From: Archaeoglobus sp. JdFR-37 | GTDB lineage: Archaea > Halobacteriota > Archaeoglobi > Archaeoglobales > Archaeoglobaceae | Direction: 5' to 3' | DNA length: 42,499 bases | NCBI GenBank assembly: GCA_002010215.1 | Contig: MTMY01000044.1 | Span: 1-42,499, forward strand | Shown: positions 39,001 through 42,499 of the stretch, piece by piece | How the letters are laid out: the number at the start of each line of letters is the position of its first letter | How positions within the stretch are numbered: position 1 is the stretch's first letter | Program-made: the position numbers

Positions 39001-42000
39001 AGACGAGCTCAGGCTTATTTATGACCTCTTCCCCAGAATTAAAGAGCTGAAAAACCAGATTGTTAAGAACATGAGCGGCGGAGAGCAGCAGATGGTGGCA
39101 ATCGGCAGAGCTTTGATGGCAAGACCAAAACTCCTATTACTTGATGAACCCTCAATGGGTCTCGCTCCCATAGTGCTTGGAAAAATCAGGGAAGCTCTGA
39201 TGAGAATAAAGAACGAAACTGATATCTCAATACTGCTGGTTGAGCAGAATGTACATCTTGCTCTAGAGCTTGCTGATAGGGTAAGTGTTTTGGTTAAAGG
39301 GGAGATTGTTAGAGAAGGAGAGGCGAAGAGCATGACAGATTTGGAGAAGCACTACTTCGAGATTTGATGAGTATTGAGGAGGTTTGAGGAGGTGTAACAT
39401 GACGGTTGTTTTGAAAGTTAGAGATGTTATGAGCAGAAATGTGACGAAGGTGCCTGAAGATGCCACTGTTCTTGATGCGGCCAAAAAAATGGTTGAAAAG
39501 GGTGTGAAGTGTGCTATTGTTGTTGACAGTGATGACAAAGCTCTGGGAGTCGTCACCGAAGGCTCCATTACCAGAAAGGTGCTGGCTGCTGGTAAAGATG
39601 CATCTGCTGTGAGTGTAAAGGAGATCATGTCCTCACCTGTCCTCACAATCCCGGCAGATGCATCAATAAGAGAAGCCTCAGAACAGCTGCTGACAAAGGG
39701 TGTAAAGCAGCTCTATGTCGAAGATGATGGCGAAATTGTGGGACTCGTCACTGAACACTTAATACTGAAAGCCGTTACAGAAGTTGTTCTGACGCTTATA
39801 TCAATTTGAGGGTTAGAATTTAACGAAGAATCATTAAATTTTTAAATGCCTGTTTACATTGTAATATCAGGTGATTGAAAATGCGGTTTAAGGGTAAAGT
39901 AGTGCTGGTTACTGGGGCTGCCAGGGGAATTGGAAGGGCTATTGCAGATGCCTTCGCCGGAGAAGGTGCTAAAGTGGTCATCAACGACATAAACGAGGAG
40001 GCTGCTAAAGCTGCAGCGGAGGAGATCAAGAAAGCCGGTGGTGAAGCAATAGGAATCAGGGCAGATGTGACCGACTATGAAAGTGTAAAGAAGATGGTTG
40101 AAGAAATAAAGAACGTTTACGGAACGGTTGATATACTAGTAAATAACGCCGGTTACTGGACCATAAAGCTATTTAAAGATACCGCGCCAGAAGAATGGGA
40201 GAGAGATATCAGAATATGCTACTACGGAACTCTGAACTGCACTCACGCAGTGATTAAGGACATGATTGAGAAGAAATATGGCAGGGTAATCAATATCGTC
40301 AGCGACGCTGGCAGAATTGGGGAGCCCTATCTTGCAGTATATTCTGGGGCTAAAGCCGCCATAGTAGGGTTCAGTAAGGCTCTTGCCAAGGAAGTTGCCA
40401 GATACAACATAACCGTTAACTGCATCGCTGCTGGCGTCACAAAGACTCCGGGAGTTGAGGGATTCCTGAAGAGCGTTGGAGGAGAAGAGAAGCTGATTAA
40501 GGCATATCCAAGGGGCAGGCTAGGTCTGCCTGAGGATATTGCCAATGGTGTCATATTCTTCGCTTCTGACGAATCTGAGTACATAACCGGGCAGATCATA
40601 AGCATAAGTGGAGGATATACTACTGTTGGATGATCCCATTGGATGATTCGTTTCCAATATTTTTCAACTTTTAATTTTATCATTTTAATTTATCCGTCGC
40701 TATTTTCAATCCCAGAAATATGGTTGCAACATACTATCTGCTACAGGTATCCCGAAATAAATTCTGTTACTTCAAGAACCGAGAGGTGCCCATAGAGTGG
40801 GTAGCACTTAACTGATTAATTATCACCATACTTTATCAACAAGCCACCATCACTGACTCTTTTTAAACTCAATGGTGAAGCTTCGAGAGAAGTGTAGAGG
40901 GGCTTGTAATCTACGAGAAATGACTCTCTAAAAATGTTAAAATGAGTTAAAGATAAGTTCAGAAAAAACAGCGGATGTCTAGGGTAAATTGTAAATACGG
41001 GAGTCACGAAAATAGAAACAATGATAATTTCCGCTGATCCACAAGATGGTAGGCAAGCTCTGATATCCAAAATCATTGAGAAAGGGAAAAAGATTCCTTC
41101 AAGGTTTGGTACATGCTTTACAACTGGCCCAGAACTTCTGGTAATTGAGAATTCTGAATACATAAGCAGGATAGATGCAAAAGCCTGGGATATTTGCGGT
41201 GAAAGTTATGCTGAGAGGGTTGAACCCCTTTTCAGGCTGGCAGCTGAAAAGCTGAAAGAGGCTCCATTCACGCGAAGGGTATCCATTCCAGTGTGGCGGC
41301 CAAAGGATCATCTCTGCCATACTCCCCCAGCAGTTACTGAAATATCCTTTCTGGTGGTGGATGATAAGCTCCATGTAACTGCTTATGTCAGGAGCCTTGA
41401 CGTGCTGAACTATTTCATGCATACCAGCGATTTTGTGACCTATTGTCAGGAAAGCATTTCCGAGCTCAGCGGGATCGAGGCGGGTAGCTCAGCTTTTCTG
41501 ATAGCCTCACCCCATATTTACGAAAGGGATGAAGCTAGGGCAGAAAAGGAGGTTGGAGAAGAAGAGTATAAGGAAGTCTTTGGAGTTCACGACCTCGCTA
41601 CTCATATAGTGGAGGATTACATGTCTACAGCCTGGCATTCAGCACTGGAGTCAATCTATTACAGTGGAAGGGTGAAGAGGACAGAGTGGGGAGAATTGTT
41701 TGAAGGGCAGGCTGAAAGTAAATTCGTTCACAGAATGTTCATTGAGGTGAGGAACCCTTACGAACACATAATCCACGACAAGGCTCCGTTCACGAAGAAA
41801 TACGGAATAGAGTATGCCCATGACTACGTAATTTATGCGGCGTGCATGGACAGAGAGGTTACTGAAAATATTCTGAAGGAAGGTGAAACCTACACCTACG
41901 CTGAAAGGGCGAGGTACTGTGAGGCTGATGATGTGAAGGTGGATCAGCTTTACACATGCATTGAAAAACTGAAAAAAGACAGATTCAGGAGAGACTGCTA

Positions 42001-42499
42001 TGTGGGTATAAGCAGACCCCGTGATATCACCAGCGATGAGCCCCCCTGTCTCAGGGGATACCAGTTTCTGGTTGGCATAAATTCTAATGGTGCTGACACA
42101 AACTCTGACACCAATTCTCTCAACGGAATCTTTTATATGCGATCCAATGACGCTTATGGAGCCATGCATGCCAACATGTTCGCCTTTTCGGTGCTAACAC
42201 AGTATGTTGCAGAGCTTACGAGCTTCAGCCACTACAGATACTTCCATTTCGCCTTGGATGCCCATATCTATGGCGAGTTCCTGGATTCCGTCAAGGAGAT
42301 TCTAGAACCTGAAACTCCGGGATTCTCTGCCAGGCGATAATAAAATGGAATAAATCGAATCAATGGGAATCAATCGAAACCAATCTTTAAATCCTGAGCT
42401 TCCCAATTATCCTCCTGGCAATAATCATCCTCTGCACCTCACTCGTCCCCTCATATATCGTCCCAACCCTCGCATCTCTGTAATACCTCTCCACATCGT

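What a model noticed while it worked through the whole genome (the two positions that open the first line are those of the whole stretch)
41021..42340. Single-chain tandem thymidylate synthase: a dead ThyA half fused to a live one
The only thymidylate synthase gene of this genome (g01509, 439 aa; no ThyX) is an internal tandem duplication of the ThyA fold in one chain. I read it as a covalent pseudo-heterodimer with a single active site: the C-terminal half keeps the nucleophile Cys (PPCLRGY, Cys343), the N-terminal half has Ala there (PPAVTE, Ala104) yet keeps the Arg-Arg pair (Arg85-Arg86) that in ThyA dimers reaches across into the partner's dUMP site. New if true: a natural single-chain, one-site ThyA (an obligate homodimer frozen into one polypeptide), fixed in Archaeoglobi, which use H4MPT, not folate.
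Evidence so far: pfam.tsv: two Thymidylat_synt hits, residues 75-183 and 288-431; the halves align to each other (blastp E 7e-6, call 83). 108 other protein clusters of 311-493 aa with E 1e-8 or better, the named ones Archaeoglobaceae/Archaeoglobales plus one Alkanophagales. In an alignment of 23 of them: Cys343 23 of 23, Arg85 and Arg86 23 of 23, position 104 Ala 21 / Ser 2 of 23, Arg124-Ser125, His165, Tyr167 of the N half 23 of 23. AlphaFold2 on that alignment: mean pLDDT 92.3, pTM 0.92 for the whole chain; Foldseek: each ThyA-like PDB chain covers only about half of the model (TMq 0.32-0.44, TMt 0.44-0.67; call 96). ThyX (PF02511) 0 of 4 genomes incl. this one. Paper search call 97 (9 papers; PMC9012536 [...]
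(Added by a program. Inside this text positions count along the whole contig: contig position 1 is position 1 of the stretch shown here. "Call 12" and the like, gene names such as g00115 and contig names such as C1 are that model's own, and its searches are not shown. The text may have been shortened before it was handed on; [...] marks where a part breaks off. The agent that wrote the report below was given it as the finding of a first reader that could run no searches.)

Follow-up and report, generated by a model that had tools for sequence, protein, structure and literature searches.

The report
Two-in-one archaeal thymidylate synthase
This archaeal gene joins two copies of the enzyme that makes the DNA building block dTMP into one chain, with only the second copy able to catalyse, so a normally symmetric two-subunit enzyme looks permanently locked into a one-working-site form whose silent half still keeps a nucleotide pocket.

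Summary
Real. ORF 41021-42340 (439 aa) holds two thymidylate-synthase folds. In 192 tandem homologs (redundant set) the C half always has the nucleophile Cys343; the N half never has Cys there. The N half keeps both arginines lent across a ThyA dimer (Arg85/Arg86); the C half keeps one (Arg324; Asp325). AlphaFold2 gives pTM 0.93; the interface itself was not tested. It is very likely the dTMP synthase: 67 of 76 Archaeoglobi with it lack ThyX, 18 of 20 without it have ThyX. Corrections: not fixed in Archaeoglobi (76 of 96), and also present in Syntrophoarchaeum, Alkanophaga and Methanocellales MAGs. Additions: the dead half's own nucleotide-pocket residues are among its few invariant ones (5 of 8), suggesting a binding or sensing site; the live half has an acid three residues before the Cys (187 of 192), a published hydroxymethylase mark shared with short archaeal ThyA, so the chemistry is open. 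Not found in ten literature searches; this scan noted the same family on three other genomes. New variant of ThyA.

The parts
41021..42340 (+). Tandem thymidylate synthase gene, 439 aa plus TAA
41021..41554 (+). N-terminal ThyA fold (residues 1-178), no nucleophile Cys; shortened between the N-terminal loop and the Tyr94-equivalent (median 33 residues against 69 in the C half and 52 in single-domain relatives)
   Evidence: folded alone pLDDT 92.9; only thymidylate-synthase-family chains score Z 14.6-20.7, 165-174 of 176 residues aligned, next row Z 5.6
41273..41278 (+). Arg85-Arg86, equivalent to E. coli Arg126'/Arg127', the pair lent to the partner's dUMP phosphate site
   Evidence: 108 of 109, 1 gap; register; role from PMC5981203 passages
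41330..41332 (+). Ala104 at the nucleophile position of the N half
   Evidence: Ala 168, Ser 16, Thr 3, Val 2, gap 3 of 192; no Cys within one column
41390..41521 (+). Retained nucleotide pocket of the N half: Arg124, Ser125, Asp127, position 135 (Asn 163, Asp 24 of 192; Thr here), His165, Tyr167; with Arg28 and Tyr63 upstream
41555..41599 (+). Inter-domain linker (about residues 179-193) with conserved Glu185 (103 of 109) and Gly188 (106 of 109)
   Evidence: pLDDT 96 over residues 181-190
41600..42337 (+). C-terminal catalytic ThyA fold (residues about 194-439), short archaeal type
   Evidence: VIA-align Z 20-24, about 200 residues aligned to ThyA, MilA and AfhB; TIGR03283 best stretch 199-419
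41990..41995 (+). Arg324-Asp325: only the first of the two lent arginines is kept by the C half
   Evidence: Arg324 192 of 192; Asp325 102 of 109; register
42038..42049 (+). Glu340-Pro-Pro-Cys343: nucleophile, with an acid three residues before it where E. coli ThyA has Leu143
   Evidence: Cys 192 of 192; Asp 97, Glu 90, Asn 5 of 192; significance from PMC6400193 and PMC13326640 passages
42074..42109 (+). Low-complexity 12-residue insertion (352-363) nearly private to this lineage; the only low-confidence stretch of the model
   Evidence: gap in 103-107 of 109 at positions 352-362; pLDDT under 50 at 358-362
42140..42271 (+). C-half dUMP site: Arg374-Ser375-Asn376-Asp377, Asn385 (uracil-selecting position), His415, Tyr417
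   Evidence: 192 of 192 each except Asn385, 190 of 192
40990..40997 (+). Possible TATA box 24 bases before the ATG (weak; one mismatch)
   Evidence: 88 such matches in the window, 73 expected by chance, so position is the only support

Best explanation
The protein is the genome's dTMP synthase, built as a one-chain pseudo-dimer. The two folds pack on each other as the two subunits of a ThyA dimer do (inferred). dUMP binds in the C half (Arg374, Ser375, Asp377, Asn385, His415, Tyr417), its phosphate clamped by Arg85/Arg86 reaching over from the N half; Cys343 attacks C6 and a one-carbon unit, most likely from methylene-tetrahydromethanopterin, is put on C5 (residues shown; chemistry and donor inferred). 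The N half cannot form the covalent adduct (Ala104; cofactor-side segment shortened) but keeps a phosphate/deoxyribose pocket completed by Arg324 of the C half, which probably still binds a nucleotide or phosphate. The arrangement is old: one origin before Archaeoglobi and the Syntrophoarchaeum/Alkanophaga/Methanocellales-type copies split, with replacement by ThyX in some genera.
For: Two folds. One-sided Cys: 192 of 192 against 0 of 189. Lopsided lent arginines: N half both (108 of 109), C half only Arg324. Whole-chain pTM 0.93, five models pLDDT 94.0-95.1, linker pLDDT 96. dTMP role: tandem only 67, ThyX only 18, both 9, neither 2 (54% and 72% complete) of 96 Archaeoglobi; no ThyX in 5 of 5 tandem-bearing genomes outside the class; no thymidine kinase found in this genome; Asn at the uracil-selecting position 190 of 192 (rule from PMC13326640). 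Donor: Mtd present, DHFR and FolD not found. One origin: N halves one clade (SH-aLRT 96-100), C halves one clade (99-100), same internal split (the long-branch P0210 is unplaced). Precedent that a one-site ThyA dimer binds dUMP normally: engineered E. coli WT/RREE heterodimer (PMC5981203).
Against: No coordinates were seen and no test of the N-C interface was obtained; coupling analysis gave only noise. The C half departs from classical ThyA: Glu222 at the Arg21 position (Glu 178, Gln 12 of 192), an acid at the Leu143 position, and it misses the TIGR03283 cut-off (124.6 against 174.55). Genus g17 keeps both enzymes (7 of 7). Genomes are related, so the ThyX split rests on about five genera. 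PMC9931769 says archaeal thymidylate synthases are scarcely characterised and that the enzymes behind dTMP formation in archaeal extracts were not identified.
Confidence: 0.7

Rival explanations
1. The silent pocket is a working allosteric site: a deoxynucleotide (dTMP, dTTP, dUMP or a cytosine nucleotide) bound in the N half tunes the C site across the interface. This extends rather than replaces the best explanation.
For: Of 179 N-half columns 13 are at least 98% invariant; 5 of the 8 own-pocket residues are among them (hypergeometric p 4e-5; Arg28, Asp127 and Asn135 are 80-84%). Arg324, which would complete that pocket, is 192 of 192. The base-selecting position is Asn 163 or Asp 24 of 192, the two states that select uracil or cytosine in this family. 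Communication between ThyA sites is documented (PMC5981203).
Against: These residues are the family's core motif and may be held for folding or interface reasons; I chose the 8 positions knowing the motif, and columns are not independent. This genome has Thr at 135. The second lent Arg is gone.
Confidence: 0.3
2. The C site does not do classical methylene-plus-hydride transfer: it makes 5-hydroxymethyl-dUMP, or uses another donor, and a further step yields dTMP. This would hold for short archaeal ThyA generally.
For: Acid three residues before the Cys in 187 of 192 C halves, 21 of 27 single-domain Halobacteriota loci, and 1 of 189 N halves; PMC6400193 calls this residue a hydroxymethylation signature. 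Ser/Thr just before the Tyr94-equivalent in 190 of 192. Top fold matches are AfhB and MilA, 1-2 Z above ThyA. MtrA-like and pterin-binding domains are fused to short ThyA elsewhere.
Against: ThyX complementarity needs no extra gene; no conserved nucleotide-pathway neighbour in 75 loci; MtrA in only 8 of 96 Archaeoglobi and not in this genome. The Ser-x-Tyr spacing of T4 dCH is not matched (Tyr291-Thr292-Tyr293). The rule was drawn from phage enzymes; only 39 of 131 other single-domain hits have the acid. The fold ranking may reflect short length. An AfpA-type flavoprotein (recalled as akin to dihydropterin reductases) is in 45 of 69 ThyX-less but 3 of 27 ThyX-bearing genomes (my tally), weakly as expected if the pterin is oxidised.
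Confidence: 0.15
3. The halves pair between chains (N of one with C of another, or C with C), so the enzyme is an oligomer and not a locked single-chain pseudo-dimer.
For: The interface was not observed; a confident single-chain model can be borrowed from solved ThyA dimers. The C half keeps one lent Arg.
Against: pTM 0.93 with a confidently placed, partly conserved linker; a C-C dimer would not explain invariant Arg85/Arg86 and would lack the second Arg.
Confidence: 0.1
4. Origin by fusion of two already different paralogs (a heterodimer made covalent) instead of an internal duplication.
For: Halves are only 21-26% identical; free trees put three single-domain proteins beside the C halves (support 51-73).
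Against: No free-standing N-half relative in two searches (the strong hits are tandems or pieces of them); N and C halves sit next to each other in the trees (84-90) and a joint clade is not rejected (AU p 0.35, 50 rows, LG+G4).
Confidence: 0.25
5. The N half is still catalytic through a moved nucleophile (Cys99) or Cys-free chemistry.
For: Cys99 lies five residues before the lost position and is common.
Against: Cys99 is in only 98 of 189 N halves; the cofactor-side segment is shortened; the N half is less conserved (mean 0.56 against 0.73). The closest fold match AfhB keeps its Cys.
Confidence: 0.04

Closest known systems
Short archaeal (methanogen-type) ThyA, NCBIfam TIGR03283 / Pfam PF00303
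   Same: Best family match (E 3.5e-36); short fold, Tyr-Thr-Tyr motif, acid three before the Cys, Arg-Ser-x-Asp, Asn177-equivalent, His-x-Tyr.
   Different: Two folds in one chain, one without Cys; below the model's cut-off, which three single-domain relatives tested pass (L041, L045, L055).
Classical homodimeric ThyA (E. coli, L. casei, human)
   Same: Fold (Z 20-21, about 200 residues), nucleophile, dUMP-site residues, lent arginines.
   Different: Two chains and two sites against one chain and one Cys; Leu143 position acidic; Arg21 position Glu in the live half; no DHFR or FolD found in the genome. The 60 best PDB matches each show one matched stretch.
Engineered one-site E. coli ThyA heterodimer (wild type with R126E/R127E; PMC5981203, passages read)
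   Same: One functional site built from one subunit's pocket and the other's arginine pair.
   Different: Made by mixing and prone to re-mixing (the review says a covalent lock is needed); here natural, covalent, silenced by loss of the Cys, with the second pocket largely kept.
Phage dCMP hydroxymethylase (T4 dCH), MilA and the flavin-dependent dCMP hydroxylase AfhB (PDB 9IQU/9IQC)
   Same: Top fold matches for both halves; acid three before the Cys.
   Different: They have Asp at the Asn177 position, hydroxylases also Asn at Asp169 (PMC13326640); the C half has Asn 190 of 192 and Asp 192 of 192.

Membership tests
ThyA superfamily (PF00303) | Thymidylate synthase fold | tested here: met
   C half Z 20-24; N half alone Z 14.6-20.7; Pfam 97.9 bits, cut-off 24.3
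Classical ThyA | Nucleophile Cys (E. coli Cys146) | tested here: met
   C half 192 of 192; N half 0 of 189 ungapped
Classical ThyA | dUMP-site residues Arg166, Ser167, Asp169, Asn177, His207, Tyr209 (numbers partly recalled) | tested here: met
   C half 192 of 192, Asn 190 of 192
Classical ThyA | Arginine pair lent by the partner subunit | tested here: inconclusive
   Arg85/Arg86 invariant, but their contact with the C site was not observed
Classical ThyA | Symmetric homodimer with two catalytic sites | tested here: not met
   Two unequal folds in one ORF, one Cys
Classical ThyA | Hydrophobic residue at the Leu143 position | tested here: not met
   Asp/Glu in 187 of 192; rule from PMC6400193, PMC13326640
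Classical ThyA | Reductive methylation of dUMP with oxidation of the pterin | not testable with these tools
   Only indirect: ThyX complementarity, AfpA trend
Methanogen-type ThyA (TIGR03283) | Score above the curated cut-off | tested here: not met
   124.6 against 174.55; another tandem, P0114, 148.6
dCMP hydroxymethylase (T4 dCH, MilA) | Asp at the Asn177 position | tested here: not met
   Asn 190, Asp 2 of 192; the divergent P0210 is one with Asp
Pyrimidine hydroxymethylases | Acid three residues before the Cys | tested here: met
   187 of 192
Pyrimidine hydroxymethylases | Ser/Thr partner near the Tyr94-equivalent | tested here: inconclusive
   Thr/Ser one residue before the Tyr in 190 of 192; T4 dCH has it two before; geometry not seen
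Flavin-dependent dCMP hydroxylase (AfhB type) | Asn at the Asp169 position | tested here: not met
   C half Asp 192 of 192; N half Asp 161, Glu 22, Asn 9

The most novel reading that the evidence does not exclude
A natural one-chain thymidylate synthase in which the duplicated second site was turned into a conserved nucleotide sensor that controls the single catalytic site, the sensed base switching between uracil/thymine and cytosine types across lineages (Asn or Asp at 135); the catalytic site, with its hydroxymethylase-type acid, may in addition run a non-classical, methanopterin-adapted route to dTMP.
Probability: 0.2. Interest if true: 0.8.

Novelty: new variant of a known kind. Interest (0 to 1): 0.57.

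Why it matters
ThyA is the textbook obligate homodimer with disputed half-of-the-sites behaviour; studying it has needed engineered heterodimers that re-mix, and a review asks for a covalent lock (PMC5981203). A natural, likely thermostable (inferred from the lineage), permanently asymmetric ThyA gives that lock: each site can be changed alone, so cross-talk and the need for a second site become directly testable. It also offers a handle on archaeal dTMP synthesis, where the enzyme and its chemistry with methanopterin are scarcely characterised (PMC9931769). Limits: the reaction is probably the ordinary one, pseudo-dimers by duplication are a common theme in enzymes generally (recalled), and the feature is lineage-wide, not special to this genome.

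Tried and rejected
Complex prediction of N half with C half: no job was obtained, so no verdict; the interface stays untested. Mean-field coupling analysis on 190 tandems (effective number 76 for 406 columns): top pairs were unstructured, discarded. Linker-length count: invalid, because my cropping removed linker residues; not used. AU test with the mixture model on 88 rows did not finish; the reported value is from 50 rows under LG+G4; 8 long-branch rows, among them both P0210 halves, were left out. Free-standing N-half paralog (my first idea, a heterodimer of two methanogen paralogs): not found; two genomes with two separate genes (G169, G212) have Cys in both. Corrinoid/MtrA partner: MtrA in 8 of 96 Archaeoglobi, not in this genome; the pterin-binding DUF4346 domain is in 92 of 96 and does not discriminate; Mtd 91 of 96 does not separate ThyA from ThyX genera. 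DmrX-type model TIGR02700: no match over the cut-off in this genome. Gene neighbourhood: no nucleotide-pathway partner among the 25 commonest clusters in 75 loci, judged by eye. Viral contigs: 16 pattern matches, none confirmed. RNA runs: no RNA holder listed. P0210 has no relative at E 0.001. Literature: ten searches listed no paper on a tandem ThyA; the library lacks most subscription papers. Loci L069-L074 and L076-L078 were left out of the 192 set as duplicates, and the unrelated tandem P0194/P0266-P0269 was excluded from the counts.
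Full report
Observation. The window is the whole contig C16 of a 1.97 Mb assembly, 94.5% complete. 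ORF 41021-42340 (+) encodes 439 aa. Pfam PF00303 matches in two stretches; the best NCBIfam model is the methanogen-type TIGR03283, below its cut-off. The halves are homologous (BLASTP E 1e-5; profile-profile probability 97.7%). AlphaFold2 on 106 homologs gives pLDDT 95.1 and pTM 0.93. The C half aligns to ThyA, MilA and AfhB at Z 20-24 over residues 187/199-431. The N half folded alone (pLDDT 92.9) matches only seven thymidylate-synthase-family chains at Z 14.6-20.7 among 48,161; the next row is 5.6. So both halves are ThyA folds. Profiles of either half find no other ThyA-like frame in the genome.

Anatomy. I cut 197 two-domain proteins into halves, set aside five copies of an unrelated tandem, and counted 192 (a redundant set; 190 of them weigh about 76 at 80% identity). 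E. coli numbers Arg126/127, Cys146, Tyr94, Leu143, Ser167, Asp169, Asn177 come from the papers cited; Arg21, Glu58, Arg166, His207, Tyr209 are recalled; register is. C half: Cys343, Arg374, Ser375, Asp377, His415, Tyr417, Tyr293 192 of 192; Asn385 190 of 192. N half: position 104 Ala 168, Ser 16, Thr 3, Val 2, gap 3, never Cys; Cys99 nearby is in 98 of 189. The arginines that a ThyA subunit lends its partner (PMC5981203, passages) are split unevenly: the N half keeps both (Arg85, Arg86, 108 of 109 with one gap), the C half keeps the first (Arg324, 192 of 192) and mostly has Asp at the second (Asp325, 102 of 109; Arg or Gln in the non-Archaeoglobi copies). The N half is also shortened on the side that in ThyA carries cofactor contacts (median 33 residues between two anchors, against 69 and 52). 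This is the pattern expected if the C site is the only catalytic one and is completed by the N half.

The silent half is not empty. Only 13 of 179 N-half columns are at least 98% invariant; two are the lent arginines and five (Tyr63, Arg124, Ser125, His165, Tyr167) line its own pocket, out of eight pocket positions I named (p 4e-5, with the caveat that they are the family motif). Arg28, Asp127 and Asn135 are 80-84% conserved; 135 is Asp in 24 of 192 and Thr in this genome. With Arg324 from the C half the pocket could still hold a nucleotide; whether that is structural or regulatory cannot be told from sequence.

Function. Among 96 Archaeoglobi genomes, 77 match the protein; one of these (G019) holds only two separate single-domain, Cys-bearing genes, leaving 76, four of them partial. 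ThyX is in 27. Tally: tandem only 67, ThyX only 18, both 9, neither 2 (54% and 72% complete). The ThyX-only genomes fall in four genera, so these are few independent events. Five of five tandem-bearing genomes outside the class have no ThyX. This genome shows no thymidine kinase, DHFR or FolD and has Mtd. So the tandem is very probably the dTMP source and methylene-H4MPT the likeliest donor; PMC9012536 (passages) makes the same kind of inference for some ANME ThyA and calls the cofactor hard to predict.

Range and origin. In a sample of 251 Halobacteriota genomes I cut out the ten non-Archaeoglobi genomes showing two matches: eight in three families are tandems, two have separate genes. A scan of named genomes returned 76 loci, among them four Methanocellales MAGs, two Ca. 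Syntrophoarchaeum, two Ca. Alkanophaga and one 'Methanobacteriota' MAG. N halves and C halves each form one clade with the same internal split, so the tandem arose once before these lineages' copies diverged; the N half evolves faster. A joint N+C clade is not rejected (AU p 0.35) and not shown. No free-standing N half was found.

An open point on chemistry. Three residues before the Cys, where E. coli has Leu143, the C half has Asp or Glu in 187 of 192, single-domain Halobacteriota loci in 21 of 27, the N half in 1 of 189. PMC6400193 (passages) shows that this acid is needed for hydroxymethylation in T4 dCH and proposes it as a signature; PMC13326640 (passages) says it 'appears to correlate' with hydroxymethylated products. 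The second element of the signature is only partly matched. Against a different route: no partner gene in 75 neighbourhoods, MtrA in 8 of 96, and a weak trend of AfpA with ThyX absence (45 of 69 against 3 of 27), although several complete ThyA-only genomes lack AfpA. PMC9931769 (passages) notes that dTMP formation was shown in archaeal extracts without identifying the enzymes. I give non-classical chemistry about 15%.

Shown and inferred. Shown: two folds, one Cys, residue pattern, distribution, single origin of the core family. Inferred: intramolecular dimer-like packing (pTM and residue logic only; no complex prediction was obtained and coupling analysis failed), monomeric state, donor, product, role of the second pocket.

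Comparison and novelty. It works like ThyA and belongs to the superfamily, nearest the short archaeal type, but fails the homodimer/two-site feature. Its closest functional analogue is the engineered one-site E. coli heterodimer, for which the review asks for a covalent lock. The 60 best PDB matches to the family profile each show a single stretch. Ten searches of the held library listed nothing on a tandem ThyA; I read passages of six papers (PMC9012536, PMC5981203, PMC13326640, PMC6400193, PMC9931769, PMC5654409), saw the rest as listings, and opened no supplements, where alignments might include these proteins. Databases simply name members 'thymidylate synthase'. This scan noted the same family on three other genomes and tandem ThyA in Asgard archaea; these are unchecked notes, not support.

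Verdict. A real, lineage-wide, apparently undescribed architecture of a known enzyme: new variant of a known kind, interest 0.57.

Noticed in passing
P0194 and P0266-P0269 (837 aa): A second, independent tandem ThyA: ThyA with Cys, pterin-binding DUF4346, ThyA with Ser at the nucleophile, DUF4346. Its halves are sisters (SH-aLRT 100), so a live-plus-dead duplication arose at least twice, here in the opposite order.
   Followed up: partly
P0115-P0234: Of 29 proteins scanned (picked for length), 16 join a short ThyA to a pterin-binding DUF4346 domain and 8 to an MtrA-like domain above the Pfam cut-offs, hinting at a corrinoid/pterin-linked route in other lineages.
   Followed up: partly
P0210/P0265: Very divergent tandem labelled Aenigmarchaeota: N half without Cys, C half with Cys but Asp at the Asn177 position; no close relatives; tree position unresolved.
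   Followed up: partly
L040-L068: Single-domain archaeal ThyA mostly carry the hydroxymethylase-type acid three residues before the Cys (21 of 27); the bacterial-type long ThyA L062 has Leu.
   Followed up: partly
Genus g17, G065-G071: All 7 genomes keep both the tandem ThyA and ThyX, and none shows AfpA.
   Followed up: no
L031:2091-2774 and L032:1841-2581 (G019): Two single-domain Cys-bearing ThyA genes in a genome of a ThyX genus, among unusual genes that look mobile or misbinned.
   Followed up: no
L040:949-2148, L042: A second Cys-bearing ThyA paralog in two genomes of one family; in L040 the same open frame begins with a weak PCNA-like match.
   Followed up: no
window 34676-40633: Upstream: branched-chain-amino-acid-type ABC transporter genes, a CBS-domain protein and an SDR oxidoreductase. 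Similar-looking ABC genes flank the tandem in 11-18 of 75 loci (judged by eye); no link to dTMP seen.
   Followed up: partly
window 41339-41341 and 42053-42058: Half-specific conserved residues on the strand after the nucleophile position: Glu107 in the N half, Arg345 and Gly346 in the C half; candidates for an asymmetric interface.
   Followed up: no
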